A DNA stretch of 56,178 bases, from NCBI GenBank assembly GCA_902611135.1, contig CACLYL010000003.1:1-56178 (forward strand). Reading direction: 5' to 3'. The notes under the pieces are model-generated. The model ran no database searches. It was given only the letters and a program-made list of their open reading frames with translations, and had not been told where the DNA came from. The stretch is from an uncultured Fidelibacterota bacterium. GTDB lineage: Bacteria; Fidelibacterota; Marinisomatia; Marinisomatales; UBA1611. The number at the start of each line of letters is the position of its first letter. Positions within the stretch are counted from its first letter, which is position 1. Below are positions 7,517 to 51,607 of the stretch, piece after piece. Made by a program: the position numbers and the translations under genes.

Positions 7517-10500
7517 ATGCGGAAAATATTGGTTTTTTTCATATACTTTTTATCACTTACTATGCCTCAAAATGAAGGCTTAGTTAAAACTTATTATCCT
7601 AACAATTTAGATCCGAAAAAGTTAGGTGCCATTGAAACAGAAGGCAATTTTTCAAATGGCGTTCGAAATGGTTTGTGGATGTTTTGGTATGATGGTGAAG
7701 CTTACAATGATTGGGGAGAAGATGATGATCCTTTAACTGACGATGAGGGCAATCTTAATGGGCAATGGGATTCTACTGAAGTAGTAACCATTGATTTAAA
7801 TGGGGACGGTTTTTTTTCAGAGCCAAATAAAAAAATGGAAGGTTCATATGTAAACGGCGACAGGGAAGGTGATTGGCTATTATATTACAATAATAAAGAT
7901 AATACCAAAAAAGAACAATCCTCCTACAAATCTGGAAAACTAGATGGACCTTTGACAAAATGGTTTGAAAATGGGAATAAAATTGAAGAGGGAAACTATG
8001 AAGAAGGTAGACAAAGTGGAATATGGACATGGTATTACGAAACTGGTATAAAAAAGGAAGAAACCCAATTCATTGATGGACAACAAGATGGTTTGTGGAC
8101 TCAATGGTTTCCAGATGGACAAAGAAAGTCTGAACGAACATTTACCAATGGAGAGAGAGATAGTAAATGGACCTCTTGGTACAAAAATGGAAATAAAAGA
8201 CTTGAAGCAAACTACAAAAATGGTAAACTGAGTGGCATGTGGACCTCTTGGTATGAAAATGGAATCATTAAGGAAAAGTCAGGAAACTATAAAGAGAATA
8301 AGCTAGAAGGACAATGGACATATTGGGCAGAGGATGGAAGAAAAACAAGTGAGACAACTTATAAAAACGGTAAAAAAAGTGGGCCTGTTAAAAATTGGAA
8401 CGCGGATAATACGAAAGTTTTAGACGGCTTTTATGAAAGTGGAGAAAAAGATGATACATGGACCTTCTGGTATGATGATGGTATTATGAAGGCTAAAGAA
8501 GGATATCAAAATGGAAAACGACATAACAAATGGATCTGGTGGGATCCTGAAGGCATTAAAATTAAGGAAGGTGAATACAAAAATGGAGTTAAACATGGTA
8601 CTTGGATTAATTGGAACAATTCTGAAGACAAATCTATTGAAGAGACATATTTAAATGGTAAAATAAATGGAATGGTTACCATTTGGTTTGATAATGGAAA
8701 TAAGGATCGAGAAGGCGTAATAAGAGTAAACGAGCCTGAAGGGAAATGGTCCTATTATTATCCTGACGGAGAACTTGATTTTATTTTTGACTATGGAACC
8801 GGACTTGAACGAGTTCGTATTTCAGAACTCGAAAATAGGGATGGAATATTCTACAAGATCGGTAAATATAAGCCCTATTCAGGAATGGTAATAGAAACTG
8901 GTGGTATAAAAGACTACTTGCTGTTAGGCAGATTTCAATCTGGAAAAAGGGATGGGCAATGGGTTCAGTGGTATCGAAATGGTCAAAAAGAAGTTGAAGG
9001 AATTTATTACAGAGGCAAAAAGCATGGAGAATGGACTCTATGGTATGAAGAAGGGAACTTAAAAGAACAGGGAACATTTGATATGGGTAAAATTGATGGT
9101 ATTTACAAGTACTGGTATCTAAATGGACACTTAAAAGTTGAACAATCATATCACAAAGGAAAAGAGCATGGAAGGTGGACTTGGTGGTATGAAAATGACC
9201 GCACCCTAACCTTCACCGATGGTGTTTGGTCGTACAATGGGAAAGAATACCAGGCAGAAAATGATGAAGAACTCTGGAATTGGTGGTGGTATTTAAATGA
9301 CAACAAGCAGAAGGAAGGCCACTATCTTGATGGTGAAAAGAATGGGATATGGACATGGTGGTATGATAGTGGTATAAAGCAATCTGAGGGAAGTTATGTT
9401 GATGATGAAATGGATGGGGCTTGGTTTTATTATAATCTTGATGGCTCTATTGCAGAAGAGAAGGGGTTTGCTGAAGGGCAATTAAATGGGAAAACAGCCA
9501 CATGGGTTACCCCCGAAGAAAAACAAAGCGAGAAATTTTACAAAAATGGTAAACTAGATGGCCCAAGTACTAATTGGGTTAATGGCTACCGAACCACAAT
9601 GACAAATTATAAATTAGATAACCCTGATGGTCCATGGGCGATTTGGTATCCAAAATCAGATCAAATTAAAGAAAAGGGTTATCATCAAGTAGGAATAAAA
9701 GAAGGATTAACAACATATTATTACAAAGATGGTACTATGCAAAGAGAAGGGTTTTTAAAGCAAGGTTCTCCAAATGGAATTTGGACATATTGGAATTCAA
9801 AAGGAGAGAAAGATTTTGAATTTGATTTTGGCGAAAATCTTGAACACATCATATTAAATCAACTAGTTGAGCGAGAATCAGTATTTTACAAACCAGGAGA
9901 GGATCGACCATTTACTGGTGTAATCACCGATGAGAATGCAGACGCCGGTTATTTGTTTTTAGGTAGGACAAATAAGGGTAAAAAAGACGGCCCCTGGATA
10001 AAATGGTCTCCTTCAGGAAAAAAAGTCCCTGAGATCCTTATAGTTGATGTACCAGTACCTGAACCAAAAAAACCATGGAGCGGTGGAAAAGAAGAGCAGG
10101 GAGGATACAAGAATGGTGAAAAACATGGTCTTTGGACTGAATGGTACGATAATGAAAATATTAAATCACGAGGGACTTATGACGAAGGAATAATGAACGG
10201 AAAATGGACTTTTTTCTATGAAAATGGAATAAAAGAAAAAGAAGGAAACCTTTTAAATGGGAAAGCTGATGGTTTGTGGGTATTTTACGATAAAAAAGCG
10301 AATAGAGTTCAAGAAGGGTCCTTTTCAAAAGGTTCAAAAGAAGGAAAATGGTCAGCATGGTTTGCAGATGGTAGACTTTCAGAGGGATACTATCTTAATG
10401 GGAAAAAAGATGCCACTTGGACTAGCTGGTGGGACAATCAAAAAAATCTAAAAGAAATGCAAGGTTCATATAAAAAAGGAAAAATGGTTAATAAGTGGTA

Positions 10501-10558
10501 CTTTTATGATCCGAGCGGTAATCTAAAAGAGATCCGATATTTCTCACCAAGTTTTTAA
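7517..10558 (+). CDS. Large exported MORN-variant (YwqK-like) repeat protein
   Basis: More than 30 ~24-aa repeats of EG.YKNGK..G.WT.WYENG.K, a signal peptide, and an AGAGGA SD. Confidence 0.85.
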   Translation: MRKILVFFIYFLSLTMPQNEGLVKTYYPNNLDPKKLGAIETEGNFSNGVRNGLWMFWYDGEAYNDWGEDDDPLTDDEGNLNGQWDSTEVVTIDLNGDGFFSEPNKKMEGSYVNGDREGDWLLYYNNKDNTKKEQSSYKSGKLDGPLTKWFENGNKIEEGNYEEGRQSGIWTWYYETGIKKEETQFIDGQQDGLWTQWFPDGQRKSERTFTNGERDSKWTSWYKNGNKRLEANYKNGKLSGMWTSWYENGIIKEKSGNYKENKLEGQWTYWAEDGRKTSETTYKNGKKSGPVKNWNADNTKVLDGFYESGEKDDTWTFWYDDGIMKAKEGYQNGKRHNKWIWWDPEGIKIKEGEYKNGVKHGTWINWNNSEDKSIEETYLNGKINGMVTIWFDNGNKDREGVIRVNEPEGKWSYYYPDGELDFIFDYGTGLERVRISELENRDGIFYKIGKYKPYSGMVIETGGIKDYLLLGRFQSGKRDGQWVQWYRNGQKEVEGIYYRGKKHGEWTLWYEEGNLKEQGTFDMGKIDGIYKYWYLNGHLKVEQSYHKGKEHGRWTWWYENDRTLTFTDGVWSYNGKEYQAENDEELWNWWWYLNDNKQKEGHYLDGEKNGIWTWWYDSGIKQSEGSYVDDEMDGAWFYYNLDGSIAEEKGFAEGQLNGKTATWVTPEEKQSEKFYKNGKLDGPSTNWVNGYRTTMTNYKLDNPDGPWAIWYPKSDQIKEKGYHQVGIKEGLTTYYYKDGTMQREGFLKQGSPNGIWTYWNSKGEKDFEFDFGENLEHIILNQLVERESVFYKPGEDRPFTGVITDENADAGYLFLGRTNKGKKDGPWIKWSPSGKKVPEILIVDVPVPEPKKPWSGGKEEQGGYKNGEKHGLWTEWYDNENIKSRGTYDEGIMNGKWTFFYENGIKEKEGNLLNGKADGLWVFYDKKANRVQEGSFSKGSKEGKWSAWFADGRLSEGYYLNGKKDATWTSWWDNQKNLKEMQGSYKKGKMVNKWYFYDPSGNLKEIRYFSPSF

Positions 10559-13296: not shown

Positions 13297-13336
13297 AAAA
13301 ATAAAAAGCCTCAATTATTTGAGGCTTTTTATTTTT
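13297..13336. terminator. Bidirectional rho-independent terminator between ppdK and fliG-like
   Basis: Perfect 18-bp inverted repeat AAAAATAAAAAGCCTCAA-TTAT-TTGAGGCTTTTTATTTTT between convergent genes. Confidence 0.9.
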
Positions 13337-13366: not shown

Positions 13367-14302
13367 CTACTCTACCATTTCACCACCAGATAACATATCT
13401 TCTAAGTTTATAGTTCCATCATCAGCTAATTTTTTTGCCCCAACAACAACCTGCTTTCTCGCTCCTTCTACCTCTCTCTTTGCAACAGCGCCCTCTACTG
13501 GCTCAAACATTGCTTGCTTTTTACCGGGCAAACTATCAATAATTTTATCTACAATTTCTTTATCAAGGCCTTTTAAGGCTAATGCAAGCGCCTCAAGCTC
13601 AATTCCATTAAATAAATCTCTTTTAACATTATCAGGAAATTTTTCCAATATATCATCAAAAGTTAAGTGATACTTTTTAACTTCTTTAAATAACTCAGGG
13701 TTTTCATTTTGAAGAGTTTGCAAATACTTTTCTTCCTCAGCAGCATCCATATTCCCAATAATGTCAGCAATCTCTTTTCCTCCACCTCTAGAGAATTCTG
13801 TTGTTCTAGGCAAATAGGTTGCTTTTTCTTTCATTCTGGCTGCTACCTCTATAACACCTTCCAGTGGAATGTCCTCTAATGATCCTAGCTCTAATAAGAT
13901 TTGCCCTTTTATTTTTGGATCTACCTTATCTAAAATCTTCATTCTTTGATCAGGCTCTAATTGAGCCATAATCATCGCAATTACAGGTGAATCTTCGTTT
14001 TCGACGAGAGCGTTTAATTGCTCCTCATTTAAATCTTTCAAAAACTCAAATGGCTGGATAGGACCATCTTCTTTGTCAACCGTTTCAAATTGTTCGCTCA
14101 AGAAACCAAAATAAAACTCTTCCATCACTCTTTTTTTCACAGAATATGAAACAGCCTCCATCTCCCGAACTGTAGATCTTATCTTTCTAATATTTGTTTT
14201 AGACAGCCCCTTCACTAACGACAGGGCTAGACTTTCTCCCACTACGGAGAAAAGAATGGCTACTTTTTGTAAACCTGAAAGCATATGGTAATCATTAATC
14301 AT
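13367..14302 (-). CDS. fliG: FliG-like rotor protein (divergent)
   Basis: N domain LSGLQKVAILF..VGE, middle domain PFEFL...VIAMIMAQLEP, Gly hinge RGGGKEIADII, LTFDDI, C domain LALALKG...V.KREVEGARKQVV. Confidence 0.88.
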   Translation of the reverse strand: MINDYHMLSGLQKVAILFSVVGESLALSLVKGLSKTNIRKIRSTVREMEAVSYSVKKRVMEEFYFGFLSEQFETVDKEDGPIQPFEFLKDLNEEQLNALVENEDSPVIAMIMAQLEPDQRMKILDKVDPKIKGQILLELGSLEDIPLEGVIEVAARMKEKATYLPRTTEFSRGGGKEIADIIGNMDAAEEEKYLQTLQNENPELFKEVKKYHLTFDDILEKFPDNVKRDLFNGIELEALALALKGLDKEIVDKIIDSLPGKKQAMFEPVEGAVAKREVEGARKQVVVGAKKLADDGTINLEDMLSGGEMVE

Positions 14303-14319
14303 TTTATTAATCCTATTTC

Positions 14320-16137
14320 TTATTCATCTTCTGTTTCTTCACCTTCCTGCTCCTCATCATTAGAACCTTCTTCTACAGCTGGTTCAGCAGCTGGCGCTGG
14401 TGCTGGCTGCTCCAACCATTCTTGAACAATTGTCGAGGTTTTTGCGGGTTGTCCAACGCTCATAGAAACAACTGATTTTCTTATATCGTCAATTTCACTT
14501 TTTAAAACATTTGGATCATCTGAAACTGGAATTGATTTTGCTGCAGCTTGAGACCCTTGAGATAAAATTTCATCCTCTCTAATTTTATTTACTTCATCTT
14601 GTACTGGCTGAGCATTTCTATCGACTGTCTCTTCTTTTTTCTCCTCTTTCTTACTTCCTGGTGGCTTTTTCCTTCTTTTTCTTCTCCTAACAGGGGGTCT
14701 TTGCGGAGGATACATCATCCATGGAGGCATAGGGGGCGACACCATGTTGTTTGTTTGATTTTTTCTACCCTTAATTAACACAAAAATAAGTATAGCTAGT
14801 AATAAAACAGCAACTCCGGATACTATATAAAGTATTAACCTTGAGCTGTCAAAAGATGTCTTAGCCTCCTCTTGGACAACAACTAATTCTGCTTGGGCAG
14901 CATCAAGAGCTAATAACTTAGCTTGTATTAGAGAATCTTGCATTTGTTTCTCTTGTTCTCGAAGCGCTATTTCTGATTGAATTTTAGCTTGTGCTTTCAT
15001 TGCAGCATCAGCTGAGTCCTGTAACATTGCCTGAATAAGAGTTCTTTGCAAGTTTTGAATCTCATTATCCAGCATGGCAAACCTTGAGGAATCAACCTTT
15101 GATTGATCATTAGATTTGTTATCATTTTTCATGGTAAGCATTTCTTTAAGTGCTTCTATTTCACTTTCTAATTTAGAATTCCTAATGGAATCTCTTCTCA
15201 TTAATTCTTTCTTTTCATATTCTGCAGCTTCCTCCAATCTTTTTCTTTCAAGTTCAGCCATCTGGCTTTCAAGAGATGCTAAATCCTGTTCACGACGTAA
15301 AGACTGTTCATTTTTGTATTTCTCAATATCTTCTTTCCAACTACTTGATTCACTAACTCGTCTCTGCTCTAAATTCTCAATTTTTTCTGCAATGTTTTTT
15401 AACATTATTTGCTCAGCAGATTTTTGATCTCTTCTTTCTTTAAAGCTGGCTGTCATAATTGTTATTTTATCTCCGCGGGATCTGTCAAATTTTGAAGATG
15501 CCATAGTTAACTGTCTGATATTTTCAATAAGTTCTGGCGCGGCACCTTCTTGCAATATTAGGGCAATATCCATTCTCTTCACTTCAGCTCTGGATGGTCT
15601 TTTTCGGGATACAACTTTATCAACAAGCTCTTTTCCCTCCTCTTCACCCTCCGCAATACTATTTTGTATCGGCTCCATAGTCCTTGGTGAAATCGGATTA
15701 GATTGCGTAACAGGAGTTCTCATTTTCGATTTTTGTTGAGTTACATCTACTTCAAAACCCGGTATTGGTAGACCAATGGAATACGATTCATTTTGATTGT
15801 TTATATTCTCATTTTCTTGCATCATATTTTCTTGCATTTTTTGGAGAACATTTGCTGTTTGCTCAGCAGGAGACTCTGCTTTTTCTTTTTTAGTATCCCT
15901 AGGAGAAAAGACGGTTATTTGCTCGTTAACTTCATCCAAAACTTCTAACTCAACATCTACGTTGATTACGTATTTATGAGAATCGATAATTTTAGACAGA
16001 GCATCTTTTATTCTATCTCTTATGTTATTCTCAACCATAAGTTTTTGAGATAAATATCCACTCCCCTGACTGAAGAGAACAGTGAATAAAATACAACTCC
16101 CGAATAGTCGGATAAACTGCTTTTTAACTGTTTTCAT
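14320..16137 (-). CDS. FliF C-terminal (RBM3)-like ring protein with long coiled coil, one TM and FliG-binding tail
   Basis: ENNIRDRIKDALSKII...VINVDVEL and EVKRMDIALIL...IRQLTMASSKFDRSRGDKITIMTASF match the FliF RBM3 pattern. C-terminal PAKTSTIVQEWL matches the FliF FliG-binding helix. Start moved to ATG 16137 (GAGGAG SD, signal-peptide-like N-terminus). Confidence 0.75.
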   Translation of the reverse strand: MKTVKKQFIRLFGSCILFTVLFSQGSGYLSQKLMVENNIRDRIKDALSKIIDSHKYVINVDVELEVLDEVNEQITVFSPRDTKKEKAESPAEQTANVLQKMQENMMQENENINNQNESYSIGLPIPGFEVDVTQQKSKMRTPVTQSNPISPRTMEPIQNSIAEGEEEGKELVDKVVSRKRPSRAEVKRMDIALILQEGAAPELIENIRQLTMASSKFDRSRGDKITIMTASFKERRDQKSAEQIMLKNIAEKIENLEQRRVSESSSWKEDIEKYKNEQSLRREQDLASLESQMAELERKRLEEAAEYEKKELMRRDSIRNSKLESEIEALKEMLTMKNDNKSNDQSKVDSSRFAMLDNEIQNLQRTLIQAMLQDSADAAMKAQAKIQSEIALREQEKQMQDSLIQAKLLALDAAQAELVVVQEEAKTSFDSSRLILYIVSGVAVLLLAILIFVLIKGRKNQTNNMVSPPMPPWMMYPPQRPPVRRRKRRKKPPGSKKEEKKEETVDRNAQPVQDEVNKIREDEILSQGSQAAAKSIPVSDDPNVLKSEIDDIRKSVVSMSVGQPAKTSTIVQEWLEQPAPAPAAEPAVEEGSNDEEQEGEETEDE

Positions 16138-16227
16138 TTGACACTCCTCGGTATGTGTTTTCACAATTAGTCATATTAAATATTAAGATCCGCTATCTTA
16201 ATAGACGTTATGTTAAAATTTAAGTCA

Positions 16228-17121
16228 TCAACCATCTTTTGACCTTTCTTGTGCTGCTAAATTATCAGCTGTGGTAGCTAAAAAAGTTATTTGCAATCTT
16301 CTATTATTTGCCTTCATTTCTGGTGTAGCATTCCAGCCTAATACAGTTGGAAGCTCAAATGTGTTCCCAGATGCTTCGTTCGTGTAGGTTTGTTTTTCAT
16401 TCCAGGTAAGTTTTAATGGACTGTACATTGGATTTTCAGATTGATAATCAGCCAGTTGTTTTGGCGTCCAATCACCGTAACCTGCAGCAATAAGTCTAAT
16501 TGCTTTTATTCCACCCCTTTCAATCATATATCGAACAGCCGCAGCTCCCCTTGCTGCAGAAAGTTCCCAATTTGAAGGAAAACGTTTTCTCCATTTCCTA
16601 GGCATTGGGTCACTGTCAGAATGACCAGCAACTTCAACATTAAAAGGACTTACTTTGATCTTAGGAATAATATGTTCATCTAACAACTTTTTCAATTCGG
16701 ATTTTAGTTTTGCATCACCTGATTTAAACGAATAATCACCATCAATATTCACTATTAATCCCTTTAAGCTTGTTTGAATATCAATCGGGGAATCCCCTTT
16801 AGGACTTTCCTTTTCTAATTGTTCAATAGACTCTTCCATAGCCGCTTTAACTTCAGCAAGAGTTTTTAGTGGTTCAAATTCACCTTCATCTTCAGCCCCT
16901 TCAGCCTCAATTTCACTACCTAAAGATTTCCCTTCTGAATTTGCCATTTCCTGAAGCTTGACAGGATCCATGGTTGAAATAGCTGCAAGCAACACGAAAA
17001 AAGCAAATAATAACGTCATCATGTCAGCAAAGGTTCCAAACCATCCAGGTAGACCCTCTTCAACAGAGTCAGCTCCTGCTTGAAACCCTTTAGAAAATGC
17101 TTTTTTTTCTTTGGGGTCCAT
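16228..17121 (-). CDS. motB: MotB/PomB-type stator B subunit with OmpA-like peptidoglycan-binding domain
   Basis: GLPGWFGTFADMMTLLFAFFVLL with the essential Asp, plus VAGHSD, NWELSAARG and NRRLQI. Confidence 0.92.
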   Translation of the reverse strand: MDPKEKKAFSKGFQAGADSVEEGLPGWFGTFADMMTLLFAFFVLLAAISTMDPVKLQEMANSEGKSLGSEIEAEGAEDEGEFEPLKTLAEVKAAMEESIEQLEKESPKGDSPIDIQTSLKGLIVNIDGDYSFKSGDAKLKSELKKLLDEHIIPKIKVSPFNVEVAGHSDSDPMPRKWRKRFPSNWELSAARGAAAVRYMIERGGIKAIRLIAAGYGDWTPKQLADYQSENPMYSPLKLTWNEKQTYTNEASGNTFELPTVLGWNATPEMKANNRRLQITFLATTADNLAAQERSKDG

Positions 17122-17126
17122 TTATT

Positions 17127-17909
17127 TTATTCTCTTTTCCATTCATTTGGAGGGATGTATGAATTTAATTTTTCTCTAACAATTAGGGGGTGTTTTTTTT
17201 GAGCAATCAACTTTGCTGCTTCTACTAGTAATGCTGCAGACATCGATGTTATATTGGTTTTATTACCCATCTTTTGAGCCATTGGTAAAAAAAACAAGTT
17301 TGCAAAAACTGCTCCATAAAATGTTGTTATCAATGCAGCCGCCATTCCGGATCCTAAATTATCAGCTCCTCCTGGTTCTCCAAAACCAGCTAACATAAGT
17401 ACTAATCCAATAAGAGTCCCAACCATACCCCATGCTGGAGATAAATCTCCCATCGCTTTTAACATATCTGTTTGAAGCTTCTCTCTTTTTTCTCTAAATT
17501 CGATCCTTGTCTCCATTATTTCTACCACTTCATCTGCGCCCATTCCATCAACGACCAGCTGGACACCGTCTTTAAAAAAGTAAGTTTTGATACCATCAAC
17601 ACTCTTTTCGAGATCCGAAGCTCCTTTTCTTGCTACTTCAGCTATGCCACAAGCTTCATCCACCAAAGGACCCATTTTATCATCAGCAGGTTTTAAAACC
17701 GCCCCAATAGCTTTACCAAGTGCAATAACATGGGGAAGCGGAAAAGCAACAAAGATTGAAGCAATCATTCCTCCTAGGACAATCCCTAAGCTTGGGACAT
17801 CAATAAAGTTTCCAAAGTTTCCAGCAGCACCAGTAGCAAATGCTATTGCCATACTGCCCACAATGGCGCCCAGACCAAGGACAACGCCAACAATAAGAGC
17901 TATATCCAT
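17127..17909 (-). CDS. motA: MotA/PomA-type stator A subunit
   Basis: FIDVPSLGIVLGG, ARKG...LE, GVQLVVDG, PAWGMVGTLIGLV.ML, MAAALITTFYG..ANL.FLP. Confidence 0.93.
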   Translation of the reverse strand: MDIALIVGVVLGLGAIVGSMAIAFATGAAGNFGNFIDVPSLGIVLGGMIASIFVAFPLPHVIALGKAIGAVLKPADDKMGPLVDEACGIAEVARKGASDLEKSVDGIKTYFFKDGVQLVVDGMGADEVVEIMETRIEFREKREKLQTDMLKAMGDLSPAWGMVGTLIGLVLMLAGFGEPGGADNLGSGMAAALITTFYGAVFANLFFLPMAQKMGNKTNITSMSAALLVEAAKLIAQKKHPLIVREKLNSYIPPNEWKRE

Positions 17910-17913
17910 TTAA

Positions 17914-19323
17914 TTAGTCTCCTTCTATACTTGCATTTTTTAACTTATTTTCATGCAAAGCTTTTAAAATATTTCTAACATCAGTGTATTCCGGGTCTAA
18001 CCTTAAAGCAAGATTCCAGTTAATTGTTGCTCTTTGCACATCGCCCAACTTGTAATAAATTGAACCTCTTCTAGCATAAGCCAAAGCTAAATTTGGATTT
18101 AATTCTAGAGCTAAATCAACTTCCTTCAATGCTTCTCGATAATCACCAGCATAAAAATATCTAAGAGATTTAGACAAGTGCCTCAGTGCTTCGTTCATAT
18201 TTTTTTCTGAAACGTTAGATTCTAATTTTATACTAGTTAAGGAATCAGACAAGAATTTTGTATTTTGCTCCATTGCAGATAGCCTAACGAGTAAGTTTCT
18301 CATTTCGTTGTTCATTAAAGACATTGAGTCTCTTAAAGTTTCTACTGCAATGTTTGCCATCGCGATCGTTGAATCTCTGTGCAATGGTATGAAATTGTCT
18401 TGGTTAAATTCCTTATTAGGTCCATAGATATTCATTGGCGCCGAAGGCCCTCCTGGCAAATTTCTACTTTGTCCCTCTCTTGGAACTTCCATGCTAAACC
18501 CTATAGAAATTCCAGAATGTCCGAGCCAATAAGCATCTTGCCAGTTTGGAATTTGATCTAAGTGGGTGAACCCTAGGTTCAGGCGGTAATCCGAGGTAAG
18601 GGGGATGCGGAGTCCCACATTGACACCCGATCCGTCGAATTCACCCACAATATCCATTCCTCCCCATCTAGCAAAATATGGGGTTTTAAGTCCAAAGCCA
18701 ATAAATATTCCAGCGTTACTTTCTGGAGCATTTTCAACACTATCAGAAAGTGCTGAATTTACTGTTGTAGTATCATTTACGAATCTTGAAACAGGGGCTA
18801 GCCCTCCTGTTCCAAAACCAAAATAAGTATTCATTTTATACTCACCTAAATCTTTTTCGCTACCTAAAACTACAAAAAAAGATAACAATTCCGTGTTTAA
18901 ATTTAAAATTCCTTCTTCATCAGATGAGCTCTCGAAAACGACATCCTGTAAACCTACCGATAAAGAAAGATCATTATACATATAAACTCTTTGTTGAAAA
19001 TGAAATCCAAATTCAACAGGAGGATTATATTGTGATTGCAGTAGGTTCTCAACTCTTGTTGTATCTGCTCCTTTAACAGCAGAGAACCCAAATCCAAAAC
19101 CTCTATTTAACTCTATGTCAAAAAAAACACCACCTGAAGTATTCATAGGATTGAAATTATGAATTTCAGCTCCTACGCCTGTCCTAAAGAGGTATGGAGT
19201 TTTCATTGTACTTGTTGTTGGTATTCTCATCATATACCCAGGTCTTGTGTAGGCAACTCTCGTTGATCCATACAAAAACTGAAAGAAGGATACTATAATT
19301 ACTATTTTTTTCGATAAAGCCAT
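17914..19323 (-). CDS. Exported protein: probable beta-barrel-like N region, coiled coil, C-terminal TPRs
   Basis: Signal peptide. Alternating aromatic/Gly beta-strands (YFGFGTG, IFIGFG, VGEFDGSGVNVGLR; YjbH-like pattern). TPRs at ALELNPNLALAYARRGSIYYKLGD. Confidence 0.65.
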   Translation of the reverse strand: MALSKKIVIIVSFFQFLYGSTRVAYTRPGYMMRIPTTSTMKTPYLFRTGVGAEIHNFNPMNTSGGVFFDIELNRGFGFGFSAVKGADTTRVENLLQSQYNPPVEFGFHFQQRVYMYNDLSLSVGLQDVVFESSSDEEGILNLNTELLSFFVVLGSEKDLGEYKMNTYFGFGTGGLAPVSRFVNDTTTVNSALSDSVENAPESNAGIFIGFGLKTPYFARWGGMDIVGEFDGSGVNVGLRIPLTSDYRLNLGFTHLDQIPNWQDAYWLGHSGISIGFSMEVPREGQSRNLPGGPSAPMNIYGPNKEFNQDNFIPLHRDSTIAMANIAVETLRDSMSLMNNEMRNLLVRLSAMEQNTKFLSDSLTSIKLESNVSEKNMNEALRHLSKSLRYFYAGDYREALKEVDLALELNPNLALAYARRGSIYYKLGDVQRATINWNLALRLDPEYTDVRNILKALHENKLKNASIEGD

Positions 19324-19340
19324 TATACAATATCAACTTT

Positions 19341-20504
19341 CTACTGATATTCCTCCCAATCAATGACATATGAGTATCCTATAAAAGCACCGAAATCATT
19401 AGGAACATACAAGTCAAACTTCCCAATTGCGCCAGGCAATAAGCTTGCATCAGAAACAATACCCGTATCAAAAGTGTTGTAGGAGCCTTTGACAAACGTA
19501 GTTAATGTTTTTGTTTCACCGCTCCAATTTTTTCTAAAGACAAAGTCAACTTTCACGAAATCAGCTCTTCGACCTCCAATATTTTTGATTTCTCCGTTAA
19601 ATATAATATTACCCTGCCCATCTTTCTTTTCAGAAATATTTCCAACTAAAACACAATTAGCTGAAAACTTTGCACTTGCATTTCGTGAAGATGAATTATT
19701 GGCTGATGTATACTTTGGTTGAGCCAACTTTGGCATTGGAGGAGGAGAATAACTATCCCTGATCTGCTCTGGTACATACTCTTGAGTATCTTCAGTAATT
19801 ACATTATCAACTATTCTTACAACTTGAGCTCTATCCACGATTAAATATCCGACCAAAGTCTCAACTTTTAAGGATTTATCATCTTGATAAATTATCTTTC
19901 CAAATACGGTGCTGCCATTCTTTAGTATAATTTCTTTAGAGTATATAGTAAGTGGATTTACCCACATTTTACTTAAAGCTTTCAAATCATCTATCTCTTG
20001 AGATATATGTTTAAACTCGGCTGATAATTTCTTGATTTCAAAATTAAGCTCATTCAAGATGAAGTCTTTATTTGGCCCACCTACCGATGACGGTGTTTGG
20101 GGTACAGAAACCGACAATTGGCTTGCCATGTTTTCACTGATAGACTCTCTTTTGACTTGCTCTTCAGGCTCAGGTTTTTTTAGTTCTGCTAGGACAAGCT
20201 CTATCTCTGTATTTTCGGACAAATCCACTTCTTGCTCAGCTACAAGATTATTCATAGTAGCTCTAACAGTATAAACCCCTTCCTCTAACTTCTCTTTGAA
20301 CTTACCTTTTCGACCTGTCTCTATTTCTTCTTCTACTTCCCCATCAAGGAGAAACGCTATCTTTGCACCCTTTACACCTTCCTGGCTTGGATCTAATACT
20401 TGTCCCTCTAGTTTATACTTTTTAGCATAAACAAATCCGCCTAAAAGAAAAAAGGCTGCTATAGCGAACAAAAAATGCCTTTTAAGGCTTTTTATTAGTG
20501 TCAT
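19341..20504 (-). CDS. Exported multidomain protein: carboxypeptidase-regulatory-like domain, coiled coil, LSm-like beta domain, FxLYD-like domain
   Basis: LEGQVLDP..EGVKGAKI...GVYTVRA; EIILKNGSTVFGKII; GEIKNIGGRRADFVKV...LLPGAIGKFDLY. GAGGT SD. Confidence 0.6.
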   Translation of the reverse strand: MTLIKSLKRHFLFAIAAFFLLGGFVYAKKYKLEGQVLDPSQEGVKGAKIAFLLDGEVEEEIETGRKGKFKEKLEEGVYTVRATMNNLVAEQEVDLSENTEIELVLAELKKPEPEEQVKRESISENMASQLSVSVPQTPSSVGGPNKDFILNELNFEIKKLSAEFKHISQEIDDLKALSKMWVNPLTIYSKEIILKNGSTVFGKIIYQDDKSLKVETLVGYLIVDRAQVVRIVDNVITEDTQEYVPEQIRDSYSPPPMPKLAQPKYTSANNSSSRNASAKFSANCVLVGNISEKKDGQGNIIFNGEIKNIGGRRADFVKVDFVFRKNWSGETKTLTTFVKGSYNTFDTGIVSDASLLPGAIGKFDLYVPNDFGAFIGYSYVIDWEEYQ

Positions 20505-20558
20505 GATTTACCTCGGATTATGAACACTTCTCGCAACTAGTTGCGCTAAAGCTGGAAG

Positions 20559-20587
20559 ATTTTAAGGCAAAATCTGGAATGTGTCAA
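20559..20587 (-). promoter_or_regulatory. Sigma70 promoter of the motor operon, TTGACA-N17-TAAAAT
   Basis: Minus-strand TTGACA 20587-20582, exact 17-nt spacer, TAAAAT 20564-20559, about 55 nt before ATG 20504. Confidence 0.7.
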
Positions 20588-20635: not shown

Positions 20636-21202
20636 CTACTCCCAAAAGTTCTTCAATAGATCTCGCCGCCGAAGAGCCTCTTTTTTGGAAATTTTAACCT
20701 TTTGTTCAAGAGATTCAGTTAAATTTAAAGAAAGGGCCTTATCGTATGAATCAATGATCAGATCAAAATCCTTGTCTCCCAGTTTTAAATAAGTTTCGCC
20801 TATATAGTAATATGGCTCACCATTAAGTGGATATATATTTGAAGCTTTATAGAAGCTTTGTATTGCGTCCCATAAAACCTCTTTTTTCCCTGAAGAAAAC
20901 TTTTGAAATGCAGAGGTCATTAATAGTGAATATTTTGATACAGAATCTGATTGGGATAATTTCTGAGATTTGTGAAAATACTTTAAAGCTTCATTATAAT
21001 TTTGTTTTTCCATTGCCTTCAAGCCACGACTATTAAAAACCATTATAAGTGCCTCATTGAACTTTGGGTCTGTTATATTCTTCAAAGAATCTTGCATTTT
21101 GATTAAGTTTTCAGGATTCGTCAAAGCAATTTCTTTATAGTTAGTTGTTGCACAGCTTAAAACAAGAGTTATTGCAATTACACTATAGCCGTTAACCCTC
21201 AT
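20636..21202 (-). CDS. TPR-repeat lipoprotein
   Basis: Likely start ATG 21202 (MRVNGYSVIAITLVLSC lipobox). TPR helices such as EPYYYIGETYLKLG. Confidence 0.7.
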   Translation of the reverse strand: MRVNGYSVIAITLVLSCATTNYKEIALTNPENLIKMQDSLKNITDPKFNEALIMVFNSRGLKAMEKQNYNEALKYFHKSQKLSQSDSVSKYSLLMTSAFQKFSSGKKEVLWDAIQSFYKASNIYPLNGEPYYYIGETYLKLGDKDFDLIIDSYDKALSLNLTESLEQKVKISKKEALRRRDLLKNFWE

Positions 21203-22118
21203 AAAAAAATAGATTTTTATTTTTACTAAAAGAACTGTAAAGCTCTTCCATAGAATCAATTACAAAATATCTATCCTGAATATCGCTGTAATCAAAACAT
21301 GTTAATACAATTTCCTCGATATCATATTTTAGAAATTTTGATCGAGAGGCTTTTCCTTTTGAACAATCAATAATGTTTTTTGTTTCATCAAGAGAAGAAA
21401 TAATTCCAGAACCGTATATTTCATATGGTATATCATTAGAAACTCTTCGAAACTTATCAGTTCTTCTGCTACTTTTTAGCAAGCCATATTCATATGTCCA
21501 CCATGAAAAGTTTTGTAATCGCTTCAAGTTATGGTTAACTAATTCATGAGTTAAATTGCGTTTATTTTTTACAATCTCATATCCTAAAACACCAATTTCC
21601 CACATAAAATCTGCATATTTTCTATTCATTAAAAGGGGAATGTGCCCTTGAATATCATGAAAAATATCCGGCTCTGGAGTATACCCTCTAGCATTTTTAA
21701 TATCCGAATTTAAATACTTTTGCTCAAATCTTGGCGATCTCCTTATTATATCAGTGACCGGAAACTTTCTATCTTTATTTAATTCAAAAAATAATTCCTC
21801 ATCTAAAAAGCCAGCAACAGGAATTAAAGTCCAACTTGTGGAATTTTCTAATAATGGAGAAATAGCCTTAAAGTTCGGGAACATATTATTTGGGATAGGA
21901 AGAGTTCGAAGGCCAAGCAAATACTCCCTTGATGCATATTGGTCAAGTAAGAGTTCTAGGTTTTGATACAGTTCAGACCAAATTCTATTTTCAAGGTTTG
22001 TCACGGAGTCAAACTCTTGAGGTTTGATATATTTGTCAGAAGATGAAAAGATTTTAATCCCCTCAATGGAGTTTGGAATAACGTTTTTAAAAAGCTTATT
22101 ATAATCTATTTTATTCAA
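21192..22118 (-). CDS. phhA: Phenylalanine 4-hydroxylase (pterin-dependent aromatic amino acid hydroxylase)
   Basis: YTPEPDIFHDIQGHIPLL (two Fe-binding His), WWTYEYGL (Fe-binding Glu), IYGSGIISS, IQDRYFVIDS. Confidence 0.85.
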   Translation of the reverse strand: MNKIDYNKLFKNVIPNSIEGIKIFSSSDKYIKPQEFDSVTNLENRIWSELYQNLELLLDQYASREYLLGLRTLPIPNNMFPNFKAISPLLENSTSWTLIPVAGFLDEELFFELNKDRKFPVTDIIRRSPRFEQKYLNSDIKNARGYTPEPDIFHDIQGHIPLLMNRKYADFMWEIGVLGYEIVKNKRNLTHELVNHNLKRLQNFSWWTYEYGLLKSSRRTDKFRRVSNDIPYEIYGSGIISSLDETKNIIDCSKGKASRSKFLKYDIEEIVLTCFDYSDIQDRYFVIDSMEELYSSFSKNKNLFFYEG

Positions 22119-30835: not shown

Positions 30836-32509
30836 TTATTTCATAAAAATCATTTTTCTTAATTTTGACTTACTGCCCATTTTTAATTGATATAAATAAA
30901 CGCCGTTAGAGGCAAGTTTATAATGCTTATCTTGTCCATTCCAGGAAATTTCATAAGACCCCGAACTTTTAAACCCCTTATAAAGCTCTTTAATATGTCT
31001 CCCAGAAACATCATAAATCGATATTTCAATATCCCCATCATTGTTCAAAAAATATTCAAATTTTGTTGTTGGGTTAAATGGGTTAGGATAATTTTGATTC
31101 AGCCTAAAATTTTTAATAATCGTTTTATTCTCATGAATTGATAGACTTTGTTCTTCGTGCTCTAGCATAAATAATTGTGGTTTATCCGATGCAAAACTAC
31201 CGGACGAAAAAACAATATCACCATTGCCATCATTATCTATATCACCTGGGAAAAGCTTTGCGACTCTCACTTTTCCTTGATCATTGTTAGGAGTATAATT
31301 ATCCGTAGTGTCATCCATAAAGACAATGGTTTCCACATAGCTGTTTGGAGATAAGGGGTCCCCTTCTATATATTCCCAATCATAAATTGATTCGTTATAA
31401 TGACCTGCAATATATATGTTAGGATTCCCATCTAAATCTACATCACCAACTTGTATCTGTCTCAACCCTCCTTGATATGTCCCAAAAAGGTTAAAATTTG
31501 AAAATGAAAGCAGGCTAACGTCTTCAACCCCTTCAGCCGCATAAAAGGAACCTGGAGATAACAAGTTTCCCTCCAAATCATTCACTCCTGAGGTTACTAC
31601 AAATAGTTCATTATTACCATCCTCATTAATATCTACAATTATTATACTTTGATTCCCTCTTTCATATGCTTGATCACTTACATAAAAATCCGTTTGATAA
31701 TTGTATAAGTCCTCTCCTTCATTTTCATAGATTATAATATGATAAAATTCATAAGCAACCGTATAAATTTCTTTGTATCCATCTTGGTCCAGATCCCCAA
31801 TCGTAATATTATATCCACTCCAATTCGTCCATGAGGGATCTTCATATTCAATATTCCATTCAGGATTTGCTAAGTCATCGTTGGATAATTCAAAAATCAT
31901 AATTCGACTACTTCCAGTTTCTCCCCATGGGCCATCCATTATTGAAACAACAACCTCAGGGCTTGGATCACCATCTAGCTCATCTACAACTATTTGAGCA
32001 GCCTCCCATACATCATATAGTCCCATTCCCCAAGTTGCCGTTGGGGTTGATAAAAAGGACATTGAATCAGTTGACCACTCAAAAATTTGAAGAGCATCTT
32101 GTCTTGAAGAATCTGGATCTGTATCTACTAAAGCAATTATTTCAAGTAACCCATCTTGATCGAGATCTCCTACAGAAACACTTGAATAATTATCATAAGT
32201 ACAACTTAAATCATAGAATGTATAAACCCAGTTTAAAGTGATTGAATCATTTTCAGTTGCTTCATAATGATAGACACCATTACAATATTCTCCACTATAT
32301 GAACTAGAAACAACAAAATCACCGTACCCGTCATTATCAAAATCATAAGGGCCTACCATATTCCACGCCGGCCCAGCAGGAATTAGCCCTCCTGCACCCC
32401 AAGGTTCATTTTGCCATTTTAATGAAAAGGAGGAATCAATATCGGTTGAAAAAGTTAGCGATATTAATAAAAAAGACACTTTTATAAATTTTAAATTATA
32501 TAATTTCAT
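30836..32509 (-). CDS. Exported FG-GAP/VCBS-repeat protein with YPNPFNP (FlgD-Ig/T9SS-like) C-terminal domain
   Basis: Repeats GDLDQDG..EI, DFDNDGYGD, GDIDNDGNGD. C-terminus LNQNYPNPFNPTT...WNGQD...GVYLYQL...KMIFMK. Confidence 0.8.
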   Translation of the reverse strand: MKLYNLKFIKVSFLLISLTFSTDIDSSFSLKWQNEPWGAGGLIPAGPAWNMVGPYDFDNDGYGDFVVSSSYSGEYCNGVYHYEATENDSITLNWVYTFYDLSCTYDNYSSVSVGDLDQDGLLEIIALVDTDPDSSRQDALQIFEWSTDSMSFLSTPTATWGMGLYDVWEAAQIVVDELDGDPSPEVVVSIMDGPWGETGSSRIMIFELSNDDLANPEWNIEYEDPSWTNWSGYNITIGDLDQDGYKEIYTVAYEFYHIIIYENEGEDLYNYQTDFYVSDQAYERGNQSIIIVDINEDGNNELFVVTSGVNDLEGNLLSPGSFYAAEGVEDVSLLSFSNFNLFGTYQGGLRQIQVGDVDLDGNPNIYIAGHYNESIYDWEYIEGDPLSPNSYVETIVFMDDTTDNYTPNNDQGKVRVAKLFPGDIDNDGNGDIVFSSGSFASDKPQLFMLEHEEQSLSIHENKTIIKNFRLNQNYPNPFNPTTKFEYFLNNDGDIEISIYDVSGRHIKELYKGFKSSGSYEISWNGQDKHYKLASNGVYLYQLKMGSKSKLRKMIFMK

Positions 32510-32580
32510 TTTAAACCCTTGATTGAATAAATATTTATCTGTTTATGATTTTCTAAAAATAACTAGATTTAATTTATATT

Positions 32581-34014
32581 ATGTTAAGATTACTTTACAA
32601 TAAATCTAAAGTTTTAAAGTTCTATTTTAGTTTATTTTATATTCTATATTCACAAGAGCCCTTTTTAGAGATTAGGCCATATGCTGCTCCAAGCTATGAA
32701 CAATACCCTATTAGCGCACAGCTAGATCATCAATTCCCAACATCAAATATTGCAGACGATGTTTTTCTTCGATTTGATGGCTTTACTTTTGATGGAAATG
32801 TCATCTATCCTAATTGTTTAAATGGCATCTCTTGTTATGATGGTCACGCAGGGGTTGATTTTCATATGCCTTTTGACACTCCTATTCTTGCTCCCGCAAA
32901 TGGATATGTTATATGGGCTTCATTTACAGACCCAGCAGACCCCTGTCCTGGGGGTATTGAACCTAATGGGGACCAGGGAACGATTATACTTGCTCATGGG
33001 AACGATTATTTTTCAGTTTATTTACATATGAACCCTCCTTTAAATGTATCTGTGGGAGAAAATGTCCTCACTGGGGACACACTAGGGTTTAATGGCAACA
33101 GTGGCTGTGCTGTTGACGCTCATCTTCATTTTGAGATTAGAAAAGGGAATTGGTATTTTAACTCAACGGATCCATGGGCAATAGACCCTTATGGATGGTG
33201 GGGCTCTTTTACAGATCCCATTGAACAAATACGAGACAACCAAAGTGATTGGCTCTGGATATCTTCTGATTTGATTGATGATGGGGATAATGGATTTCAA
33301 AGATATCAAGGGCCCAACTGGTCTTATTTTAATTATGGGTATGATAATGATTCTTGGTCTGCTCCAGCTACAACAAATGCAAACGATAGTCGCCACTTTT
33401 CAATTTGGGTGCCCTATTTAGAAAATTCTGGCGTTTATGATATAGAAGTATTTATCCCTGATGGTCCTAATGCAACTAATGGTGCTATTTACGAGGTTAT
33501 TGTCAGAAATATTGATAATACAAATTCCATCCAAAGTATAGTTCTGGATCAAACGATTAATGTAAATAATTTTAGTAATCTAACAACACTAGAGTTACCA
33601 AGTGGATCAAATTGTAGCATTATACTGCGAGATATTGTTGATCAAGGTTCTTCTGGCGAGAATGTCTATTTTGATGCAGTTAGATTTTTAAGTACTGAAA
33701 CATCCAGCTCTATGCAAGACACTATAAAAAGACAGGACAATCTCAACATGTTTCCTTTGTATCCAAATCCCTTTAATCCATCAATTTCATTTCAATATCA
33801 AACAAATTTAAAGTCCAACATTTTTATAAAAATTTACAATTCTAATGGAGTGCTTGTTGATTCATTTGTAAAAGAAGATCAACTAGTGGGAAGCCATCAT
33901 TTTAAATGGATAGCCAAAGATTCAAATGGAAAAACTCTTCCATCTGGTTTATATTTTATTACTATCAGTAATGAAATGAAAACAGACGTTAAGAAAGCCT
34001 TGTTAATTCATTAA
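32581..34014 (+). CDS. M23 family metallopeptidase with golvesin-like beta domain and YPNPFNP C-terminal domain
   Basis: GHAGVDF (HxxxD), YLHM, HLHFE (HxH); FDAVRF; LYPNPFNP...LPSGLYF. Confidence 0.8.
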   Translation: MLRLLYNKSKVLKFYFSLFYILYSQEPFLEIRPYAAPSYEQYPISAQLDHQFPTSNIADDVFLRFDGFTFDGNVIYPNCLNGISCYDGHAGVDFHMPFDTPILAPANGYVIWASFTDPADPCPGGIEPNGDQGTIILAHGNDYFSVYLHMNPPLNVSVGENVLTGDTLGFNGNSGCAVDAHLHFEIRKGNWYFNSTDPWAIDPYGWWGSFTDPIEQIRDNQSDWLWISSDLIDDGDNGFQRYQGPNWSYFNYGYDNDSWSAPATTNANDSRHFSIWVPYLENSGVYDIEVFIPDGPNATNGAIYEVIVRNIDNTNSIQSIVLDQTINVNNFSNLTTLELPSGSNCSIILRDIVDQGSSGENVYFDAVRFLSTETSSSMQDTIKRQDNLNMFPLYPNPFNPSISFQYQTNLKSNIFIKIYNSNGVLVDSFVKEDQLVGSHHFKWIAKDSNGKTLPSGLYFITISNEMKTDVKKALLIH

Positions 34015-51300: not shown

Positions 51301-51598
51301 AAATAAAAACATCCCCGCGTTTTATTATTTAAATCATAACTTTCCCAACCCTTTTAACCCTACAACAAGAATTACCTATAGTCTTCCGAAGGAAACTCTT
51401 GTTAGCGTAATTATCTATGATCTGTTAGGAAAAAAGGTGAATACGCTTATAGATAAAGAGCTACAAGAACCTGGTATCAAAACAATTCAATGGCATGGAA
51501 AAAACCAAGAGGGGTTATCTTTATCCTCTGGTATTTACTTTTACTCATTGGAGACGAAGGATTTTTTACAGACAAAGAGAATGGTCCTAATTAAATAG
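48305..51598 (+). CDS. S8 subtilase with FG-GAP repeats and YPNPFNP C-terminal domain
   Basis: VAVND, HGTNVAG, NNSWG, GTSFSAP triad; GDLDND/DIDNDG repeats; HNFPNPFNPTT...SGIYFYSL...KRMVLIK. Confidence 0.9.
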   Translation: MLKRIFLFLFCFTFANTGWHKDKIMIYIDNSTDNLIINKSQTETNQEDLNRLLVNESVESISPWLSKARPSDRDGDIFLNRFYVVSFFDSSKSINERVKLFSQKPYVSSVEPVAIIKNHLRPNDMFYELQYAIPQINATNAYNLWDIEDGEIPGHMQNDNIIVAVNDYPVMWYHPDLIDNIWQNLAEDADGDGTVFEYTGTEWILDPGDINNLDDDNDGFIDNLIGWNAHSNEGDIGVNLSLSHGTNVAGCVSSMTNNETGIASVGWSIKIMGITNCDPGGSITSGYEGILTAAQMGADIINNSWGSSGGPDYAQALINTVLNEYTSLIVASSGNAGTNIANYPAAFEGVMSVTSTSEGSVFSCWATRHETVDIAAPGDNVFTTTTSPNEAGFYYNYATGTSFSAPIVSGALGLLKSIYPDGDNTFLISKIKDNANYYNDMDGNCNGESLNGLVGTGELNIREAIINPTPMSLAVSNINVLSTTGNIIPGDTTEIILTILNASGSTPLKELFISISTEHERVSIVNGYFNSNQVLPSGGFVEASFLITSTHDMSYGDISFDLNIDAQRSGNFPSNYSGHEDSLFLQVEIFLPFGSLQQYGYPISNVEIKHPPLVVDLDNNSIQEIYFSSDSTLYGKMIGGIDVPGFPFYSSSKITTPCASGDLDNDSFRELIFGTEDGYIFSLKKNGSQLFNYEQEDLIVGHPILSDIDNDGYLDIVFISTNDSSSKVHCVDYTGNDIENFPVYIQNPIHKVPAIGDINNDGLNSIIFYDKENTIYIADYLGQANSVVFDHDLSKLNNSPTITNLNEDPYLEIILSDSSGNIYVIDYQGRLLNQISLENTIQNNIVVSDLDQDGSAELVFYDNSNKLYVFNYNSGSFFEGWPISLSGSLVSEPIVVNLDSDNNLEILLNTAEGFMYVMHHDGLFYQNFPFISQDSLFSVPSIADIDNDNDAELIFGTNTSLNVIDVDFLVSNQQSWNVYRGNIRRNGFFNFQPSNLSFENKNIPAFYYLNHNFPNPFNPTTRITYSLPKETLVSVIIYDLLGKKVNTLIDKELQEPGIKTIQWHGKNQEGLSLSSGIYFYSLETKDFLQTKRMVLIK

Positions 51599-51607
51599 CT
51601 GACTTAT

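What the first reader, a model, noticed from the sequence alone, without database searches (positions are those of the whole stretch)
13367..20587. Self-contained stator+rotor operon without flagellum: candidate non-flagellar rotary machine
Seen: six co-oriented genes in the order exported multidomain protein, barrel/TPR protein, motA, motB, FliF-RBM3 derivative, fliG. Gaps are 4-17 nt except one of 90 nt. A sigma70 promoter and a perfect terminator bound the unit, and its neighbours (ppdK, phhA) are housekeeping genes. Established: MotAB/PomAB turn FliG rings carried on FliF, and flagella also need FliM/N, export gate, rod, hook and flagellin. None of these is in this 56 kb, and fliF/fliG normally sit with fliE/H/I rather than with motAB. 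Inference: this is a minimal ion-driven rotor repurposed for another load (surface motility, secretion, uptake or envelope work), with the two unknown exported proteins as output parts.
Basis: partly seen in the sequence, partly recalled or inferred. Interest (0 to 1): 0.93.

Follow-up and report, generated by a model that had tools for sequence, protein, structure and literature searches.

The report
Flagellum-free ion motor of SAR406
A widespread group of mostly uncultured marine bacteria (SAR406/Marinimicrobia) keeps the stator and a cut-down rotor of the flagellar motor in one conserved operon with an outer-membrane barrel protein, mostly in genomes where no flagellar export gene is found, so it likely builds an undescribed, probably sodium-driven rotary machine that would work on the outer membrane.

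Summary
In detail: six intact co-oriented genes (adaptor, barrel-TPR, motA, motB, mini-fliF, fliG) lie between a conserved sigma70 promoter and a terminator. Relatives are Marinimicrobia (Fidelibacterota). The operon is not a flagellar remnant. Of 251 phylum genomes, 183 carry this fliG: 141 without flhA and 42 with it; one flagellated genome checked in full has its own fliF, fliG and motAB. This fliG travels with the barrel gene (178 both, 8 discordant, 65 neither). Gene order holds in 32 of 32 distant loci. Orphan MotA and FliG form their own clades and are under purifying selection. Ion-channel and rotor-contact residues are kept, and the sodium-site threonines are invariant (41/41). FliG has lost its FliM-binding motif; mini-FliF keeps only the RBM3 ring domain, one membrane helix and a FliG-binding-like tail. 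The barrel is predicted 12-stranded with a periplasmic helix and TPR. Best reading: a one-way, likely sodium-driven ring motor coupled to the outer membrane. Rotation and load are inferred, not shown; moving surface proteins is my leading guess (about 0.3). Ten paper searches found no description. This scan noted the same operon before in other genomes (15 notes).

The parts
20559..20587 (-). sigma70-type promoter (TTGACA-17-TAAAAT)
   Evidence: 11/12; conserved in 40 of 53 entries vs 2.6 expected; one RNA contig ends at 20553, 6 nt past the -10 box (single contig, weak)
19341..20504 (-). Gene 1, exported adaptor, 387 aa: signal peptide, carboxypeptidase-regulatory-like beta-sandwich (27-108), 37-residue helix (146-182), small beta domain (190-233), Ig-like domain (284-384). 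The 19 aligned copies from outside this order lack the first sandwich and have a lipobox-like Cys
   Evidence: model pLDDT 81.0; fold matches mostly for the first domain; distant hits to the last domain are modular proteins with weak DUF3426/DUF4352 matches
17914..19323 (-). Gene 2, 469 aa: signal peptide, predicted 12-stranded outer-membrane beta-barrel (44-281), 75-residue periplasmic helix (318-392), TPR (395-468)
   Evidence: model pLDDT 80.9; KdgM Z 17.3, rmsd 2.1 over 162; FapF Z 15.9; NanC Z 15.8; YjbH-like cluster at 0.93 by language-model features (lead only)
17127..17909 (-). motA, PomA/MotP-type, four membrane helices; R94, K95, E101 at the rotor face; T165, T195, T196 at the predicted sodium site
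   Evidence: PomA residue roles from PMC10374538 passages
16228..17121 (-). motB: one membrane helix with D33, plug, OmpA-like wall-binding domain
   Evidence: D33 in 41 of 41
14320..16137 (-). mini-fliF, 605 aa: signal peptide, FliF RBM3 with collar strands (about 27-235), long helical stretch (about 240-430), one membrane helix (435-453), Pro/Lys linker, conserved tail (550-578) like the FliF C-terminus
   Evidence: Pfam over cut-off; profile hits FliF 6scn 241-438, E 3.8e-7
13367..14302 (-). fliG, 311 aa: N, M and C domains; about 25 residues deleted between N and M; FliM-binding motif altered; Gly-Gly hinge and torque-helix charges kept
13297..13336 (-). intrinsic terminator hairpin, between fliG and the convergent ppdK
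   Evidence: conserved in 62 of 68 loci

Best explanation
The operon encodes a flagellar-type stator (MotA, MotB), a FliG and a one-domain FliF that are inherited with an outer-membrane barrel independently of flagella, and these likely assemble into a one-way, probably sodium-driven ring motor that would pass torque to an outer-membrane complex. Shown from sequence: the parts, their conservation, their independence from flagella, the kept channel and contact residues, the loss of the switch-binding motif. Inferred steps: (1) MotA5B2 anchors to the wall through the OmpA-like domain and turns on ion flow; (2) mini-FliF rings through RBM3 and holds FliG by its cytoplasmic tail; (3) MotA R94/E101 engage the FliG torque helix and turn the ring, without FliM/N and so without chemotactic switching; (4) the long helices of mini-FliF, gene 1, the optional TPR genes and the barrel's helix-TPR stalk bridge the periplasm in place of rod and hook; (5) the load is at the outer membrane. 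My leading guess for the load (about 0.3 on its own) is moving surface proteins, the job that GldLM and the GldKN ring do in Bacteroidota.
For: Co-inheritance with the barrel: 178 both, 5 fliG only, 3 barrel only, 65 neither, of 251; against flhA: 42 both, 141 orphan only, 17 flhA only, 51 neither. Order kept in 32 of 32 loci from 19 families and in all 38 close loci as far as the DNA reaches (23 with all six genes). Own clades: MotA 100/99, FliG 100, tracking the family codes. pN far below pS in all six genes. In 41 copies: MotB D33 41; MotA T165, T195, T196 41 each; R94 basic 41; E101 39; FliG K261 basic 41, K275 basic 41, E267 35. Deep-branching copies keep the full-length torque helix with its acidic pair. 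RBM3 homology. Barrel fold. RNA-library contigs from three studies lie on all six genes, many at 90-99% identity. For the load: SprA in 246 of 251 and type IX tails in 251 of 251 genomes, while GldN 0 of 121, GldL 0 of 121 over cut-off and GldM 0 of 5 (no positive control rang); the one family that has lost the operon in all 21 genomes has only 1-5 tails.
Against: No rotation, ring or contact was observed or modelled. In this order the FliG torque helix is four residues shorter, the MotA R94-E101 spacing is one residue shorter, and the PomA R232 position is not kept. A Vibrio FliF-FliG fusion gave rings with fuzzy FliG, and the authors suggest FliM/N are needed for a stable ring (PMC10941966, abstract). 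The tail match to FliF is weak (E 0.09 in whole profiles, 3e-4 in cut profiles). Against the surface-protein load: two single-contig genomes (G075, G194) have SprA and at least 22 tails but no FliG_C or MotB_plug match, so secretion does not need the operon; no adhesin is in or consistently beside the operon; the cultured phylum member is described as non-motile (PMC11652737; whether it has the operon was not tested). Kin are not independent, so the counts overstate.
Confidence: 0.62

Rival explanations
1. Same motor, but the load is transport through the gene 2 barrel: the ring pulls a polymer or peptide in, or pushes one out, through a porin-sized channel.
For: Barrel is closest to KdgM, NanC (sugar-acid porins) and FapF (secretion barrel with a periplasmic coil); YjbH-like by features (YjbH's link to polysaccharide export is the cluster's automatic name and my recall); strict co-inheritance with fliG.
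Against: No transporter, synthase or hydrolase gene is conserved in or beside the operon; a shared barrel fold shows no function; loops are variable while the periplasmic TPR is nearly invariant.
Confidence: 0.2
2. Envelope upkeep in the manner of Tol-Pal: the stator pulls on an outer-membrane tether through TPR adaptors; the FliF/FliG parts are a scaffold that may not turn continuously.
For: One or two coil-plus-TPR genes (CpoB-like in layout, my recall) sit between genes 1 and 2 in 30 of 32 distant loci; near-consensus housekeeping promoter conserved across classes; single copy, vertical descent; shortened torque helix in this order.
Against: Not found in 68 of 251 genomes, including single-contig ones; the stator is of the flagellar type with plug and OmpA-like anchor, not ExbBD/TolQR type (criteria from PMC12505986 passages); rotor-face charges are kept on both partners.
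Confidence: 0.13
3. A remnant or accessory of the flagellum (decaying genes, or a second motor set for a flagellum missed in an incomplete assembly).
For: G000 is 57.9% complete; 59 of 251 phylum genomes have flhA; all four motor parts are flagellar homologues.
Against: 141 of 183 carriers lack flhA; 0 of 36 other family genomes have flhA over cut-off or flagellin; G084 is one contig with the operon and none of three flagellar families; G056 has its own complete set; strong purifying selection; mini-FliF has no RBM1/RBM2.
Confidence: 0.04

Closest known systems
Bacterial flagellar motor core: PomAB/MotPS-type MotA5B2 stator, FliG, FliF MS-ring
   Same: MotA, MotB with plug and OmpA-like domain, channel Asp, three sodium-site Thr, rotor-face Arg/Glu; three-domain FliG with Gly-Gly hinge and charged torque helix; FliF RBM3, membrane helix and C-terminal motif in the same order.
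   Different: No export gate, rod, hook, filament or FliM/N found in G000 or most carriers; FliF cut to RBM3 behind a signal peptide with a long helical stretch; FliG lacks about 25 residues and the EHPQ motif; partner genes are an outer-membrane barrel and adaptors; exists beside, and apart from, true flagellar copies.
Type IX secretion / gliding motor of Bacteroidota (GldLM stator, GldKN ring, GldJ belt)
   Same: Ion-driven stator turning a ring that works on the outer membrane (10.1101/2024.09.23.614571, abstract); the phylum has SprA and type IX tails.
   Different: No homology; GldL, M, N not found (without positive control); here the ring is FliF/FliG-type at the inner membrane; type IX genes persist where the operon is lost.
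Ton (ExbBD-TonB) and Tol-Pal (TolQR-TolA, CpoB)
   Same: Inner-membrane ion motor linked to an outer-membrane partner; coil-plus-TPR adaptors.
   Different: Stator is flagellar-type with plug and wall anchor; there is a FliG/FliF rotor and no TonB/TolA-like gene in the operon.
FapF, KdgM, NanC and YjbH-like barrels
   Same: Predicted 12-stranded barrel; FapF also has a periplasmic coil (recall).
   Different: 8-12% identity; C-terminal 75-residue helix and TPR; encoded with a motor.

Membership tests
Bacterial flagellum | MotA/MotB stator of flagellar type (plug, OmpA-like anchor, channel Asp) | tested here: met
Bacterial flagellum | FliG with N, M, C domains and charged torque helix | tested here: met
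   divergent, 107.8 bits against a TIGR00207 cut-off of 226.7
Bacterial flagellum | Full FliF with two membrane helices and RBM1-RBM2-RBM3 | tested here: not met
   only RBM3 and one membrane helix
Bacterial flagellum | Export gate (FlhA, FlhB, FliPQR) | tested here: not met
   none in G000 (57.9% complete); flhA not found in 141 of 183 carriers
Bacterial flagellum | C-ring switch FliM/FliN and the FliG motif that binds it | tested here: not met
   FliMN_C 0 of 1, 0 of 5, 0 of 5 carriers; His and Gln of EHPQ absent in the copies counted
Bacterial flagellum | Rod, hook and flagellin | tested here: not met
Bacterial flagellum | Rotation of a ring driven by the stator | not testable with these tools
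   inferred from conserved residues only
Sodium-driven stator (PomAB/MotPS type) | Three threonines (PomA T158, T185, T186) and PomB D24 | tested here: met
   T165, T195, T196 and D33 in 41 of 41; alignment to PomA; criterion from PMC10374538 passages; ion not measured
Type IX secretion / gliding motor | GldL, GldM, GldN homologues | tested here: inconclusive
   not found but no control genome rang; the operon's own proteins match none of these models
Type IX secretion / gliding motor | Motor required wherever SprA and cargo occur | tested here: not met
   G075, G194 and family f12 keep SprA and tails without the operon
Ton / Tol-Pal | ExbD/TolR-type B subunit without plug, and a TonB/TolA transducer | tested here: not met
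   MotB_plug and OmpA domains present; no such transducer among the six genes
Injectisome (non-flagellar T3SS) | SctRSTUV export gate, no stator | tested here: not met
   FHIPEP family not found in most carriers; stator present
YjbH / FapF / KdgM barrels | Family-level sequence match | tested here: inconclusive
   no Pfam barrel match; fold and feature likeness only

The most novel reading that the evidence does not exclude
A second use of the flagellar rotor in nature: an ancient, vertically inherited sodium-driven FliF/FliG ring motor that spins or drags an outer-membrane barrel complex and so gives SAR406, and perhaps other phyla with SprA but no GldLM, an unknown form of surface motility or surface-protein handling; it would also be a living minimal rotor-stator pair bearing on how the flagellar motor arose.
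Probability: 0.35. Interest if true: 0.95.

Novelty: categorically new. Interest (0 to 1): 0.86.

Why it matters
To my knowledge FliG and its stator contact are known only from flagella, and the MotAB evolution paper read here in passages treats stators with this torque interface and plug as flagellar (PMC12505986). A four-protein motor core that has lived apart from flagella since the ancestor of a phylum makes two old questions testable: what is the smallest rotor that turns (no FliM/N, no export gate, one FliF domain), and did the stator-FliG pair have a job outside swimming. It also points to an energy-consuming envelope function in a widespread ocean lineage whose cell biology is almost unknown, and it warns that motA/motB/fliG hits in such genomes do not mean swimming.

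Tried and rejected
Flagellar remnant: rejected. Required energiser of type IX secretion: rejected as an obligate link; the tail counts are capped at 22 per genome, so no fine correlation could be made. Sm-like ring in gene 1's middle domain: my idea from the pattern; the fold searches were filled by the first domain and gave only one unrelated hit there (7zs0, Z 9.2), so it is untested. Range outside the phylum: not established; a deep-branching barrel found 21 hits, one named and that one Marinimicrobia; ten distant gene 1 clusters gave one organism name; the metagenome scan returned only 54-98% relatives; a search for fused forms gave one 578-aa protein with FliF and FliG domains (weak search). 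Conserved flanking genes that might name the load: none beyond the family. Weak GldL hits: the one locus read is a chemoreceptor-like ORF. RNA depth was not used to rank genes; the uncovered upstream genes are no proof of silence. Literature: ten searches found no description; the library lacks most subscription journals, and no supplements were read.
Full report
What is there. Pfam gives FliG_N/M/C, YscJ_FliF_C just over its cut-off, MotB_plug with OmpA, MotA_ExbB, TPR and a carboxypeptidase-regulatory-like domain. The NCBIfam flagellar models match below their cut-offs, so these are divergent homologues. The promoter and terminator exist. That scan's totals are at chance, but both signals are conserved: at least 10/12 in 40 of 53 upstream regions against 2.6 expected (two entries are spurious duplicates), and a hairpin at z < -2 in 62 of 68 downstream regions. 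The window is contig 3 of a 1.36 Mb assembly, 57.9% complete. Named relatives are mostly Marinimicrobia/Neomarinimicrobiota; others are unnamed bacteria and one is labelled SAR86.

Not a flagellum. In G000 the FlhA, flagellin, FliM/N and chemoreceptor families were not found. Of 39 proteins from a flagellar cluster of the same order, only MotA, MotB, FliG and weak hits for FliI, FlhF and FlgD matched; I read the last three as ATP synthase, signal-recognition GTPase and secretion-tail homologues (inference, not checked one by one). Because G000 is incomplete, the weight lies on relatives. Among 251 phylum genomes (250 at least 85% complete, plus G000), 205 matched the window's FliG; I set aside 22 whose best E-value was weaker than 1e-25 as flagellar-type or spurious, leaving 183. 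FlhA is in 59 and the barrel gene in 181. Cross-counts: orphan fliG and barrel 178 both, 5 and 3 alone, 65 neither; orphan fliG and flhA 42 both, 141 orphan only, 17 flhA only, 51 neither. G056 has a whole flagellar cluster with canonical fliF, fliG and two motAB pairs and, on another contig, the orphan fliG and barrel. G084, a single contig, has an eight-gene version and no match to FlhA, flagellin or FliM/N. These genomes are kin, so the counts are not independent events.

Conservation. Of 38 close loci, 23 reach all six genes and 15 are cut by contig ends; none breaks the order. I took 32 of the 183 carriers, chosen for family spread and contig length: barrel-motA-motB-mini-fliF-fliG is in order in 32 of 32 (19 families), gene 1 in 31 (one contig end); the barrel is split into two ORFs in L075 and gene 1 in L074. 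Thirty of the 32 have one or two extra ORFs between genes 1 and 2; all 12 tested are TPR proteins. The window's six-gene form is thus the minimal one. Orphan MotA (33 rows) and FliG (18 rows) each form one clade apart from flagellar copies of the same order (100/99, with a long-branch warning; 100, quick tree), and inside it rows group by family. Only three flagellar rows were in each tree, so the origin of the clade is not resolved. Against three or four relatives per gene pN is 0.02-0.29 and pS 0.62-0.82, while the upstream TPR gene has pN 0.41-0.42. Contigs of four RNA libraries from three studies lie on all six genes; one ends 6 nt past the -10 box. These are contigs of near relatives, DNA carry-over is not excluded, and strand is not shown.

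Anatomy. MotA aligns best to Clostridium-type MotA and Vibrio PomA structures. PomA T158, T185, T186 bind sodium and the first two are Ala in proton stators; R88, K89, E96 and D114 face FliG (PMC10374538, passages). The matching T165, T195, T196 are in 41 of 41 copies, R94 is basic in 41, E101 is in 39, and MotB D33 in 41. FliG keeps the Gly-Gly hinge, a basic residue at 261 (the R281 position of E. coli, numbering from PMC12505986 passages) and at 275 in 41 of 41, and E267 in 35. Deep-branching copies keep the full-length torque helix; in this order it is four residues shorter. The EHPQ motif of flagellar FliG keeps only its Glu well, and about 25 residues between the N and M domains are gone; that this motif binds FliM is established knowledge (recall; the motif is named in a listing). 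Mini-FliF has a signal peptide, RBM3 with the collar strands (profile hit to FliF 6scn 241-438, E 3.8e-7), a long helical stretch, one membrane helix and a conserved tail that aligns weakly with the FliF C-terminus. Gene 2 folds with good confidence as a barrel, a 75-residue helix and TPR; the best matches are 12-stranded barrels, KdgM Z 17.3, FapF 15.9, NanC 15.8. Gene 1 is a modular exported protein with a short helix and two very conserved beta domains, and looks like a lipoprotein outside this order.

Mechanism. The simplest reading is a stator anchored in the wall that turns a FliG ring carried on a mini-FliF ring, one way only, with helical stalks crossing the periplasm to the barrel. 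Both sides of the stator-rotor contact are under selection together, which is hard to explain if they do not meet. One caution from print: a Vibrio FliF-FliG fusion forms rings, but the authors suggest FliM/N are needed for stability (PMC10941966, abstract).

Load. The phylum has SprA (246 of 251; not found in G000 itself) and type IX tails (251 of 251; 52 in G000), yet GldN, GldL and GldM were not found (0 of 121, 0 of 121 over cut-off, 0 of 5; no positive control). In Bacteroidota that motor turns a ring that drives adhesins (10.1101/2024.09.23.614571, abstract). A FliG-based stand-in for moving surface proteins is therefore my leading guess; the lead came partly from earlier notes of this scan on other phyla, which I could not check. 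It cannot be needed for secretion itself: G075 and G194 (single contigs) have SprA and at least 22 tails without FliG_C or MotB_plug. The cultured member of the phylum is non-motile and builds its wall from other cells' muropeptides (PMC11652737, abstract and passages); whether it has the operon was not tested. Transport through the barrel and Tol-like envelope upkeep remain live rivals.

Novelty. The system fails membership of the flagellum, injectisome and Ton/Tol families on tested features, while working like the flagellar motor core. Ten full-text searches found no description. I read passages of PMC13277936 and PMC12505986, in which the terms Marinisomat and Marini do not occur in the main text; their supplements, which may list these proteins among stator or flagellar homologues, were not read; PMC9389320 was seen as a listing only. 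This scan has noted the same operon in at least 14 other genomes (15 notes) and related fused forms in other phyla; those notes are unchecked and are not counted as support. Verdict: real, conserved, non-flagellar; rotary motor about 0.6; load open; interest 0.86.

Noticed in passing
L109:9334-11080 (G000 contig 9): A second, stand-alone motAB pair with plug and OmpA domains and a long branch in the MotA tree, among housekeeping genes, with no fliG nearby; partner unknown.
   Followed up: partly
phylum-wide: SprA and type IX secretion tails are almost universal in Marinimicrobia while GldL, GldM and GldN were not found: a type IX system whose energiser is unknown.
   Followed up: partly
family f12 / genus g26: The 0.8-1.1 Mb streamlined genomes lack the operon in 21 of 21 and keep SprA with only 1-5 cargo tails.
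   Followed up: partly
L089-L092 (G056): A complete flagellar cluster with two motAB pairs; 59 of 251 phylum genomes have flhA, so flagella are patchy but real in this phylum.
   Followed up: yes
L056 and L061; G258: Some assemblies hold two orphan fliG copies (62-68% to the window in G004; 65% and 45% in G258): duplication, transfer or bin mixing.
   Followed up: no
window 20636-21259: Fast-evolving TPR gene overlapping phhA by 68 nt, just upstream of the promoter; syntenic in the family and part of the order but not part of the conserved unit.
   Followed up: partly
window 7517-10558: 1013-aa exported protein made of MORN_2 repeats, upstream of ppdK.
   Followed up: no
window 55132-56151: A type IX tail match runs through a TAA stop at the end of the 310-aa ORF 55219-56151, so this secreted protein gene may be broken.
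   Followed up: no
window 30836-34014 and 48305-54973: Three type IX cargo genes (FG-GAP protein, M23 peptidase, S8 peptidase) and a TonB-dependent receptor.
   Followed up: no
P0342: A 578-aa protein with FliF (PF01514) and all three FliG domains in one chain; context not seen.
   Followed up: no
L085, L088, L097, L098, just after fliG: A shared GC-rich stretch replaces the usual terminator hairpin in families f23 and f28; may be a repeat or a small RNA.
   Followed up: no
L115 (G069): A chemoreceptor-like and a CheW-like ORF lie about 3 kb downstream of the operon in one flagellated genome; not seen in the other loci tested.
   Followed up: partly
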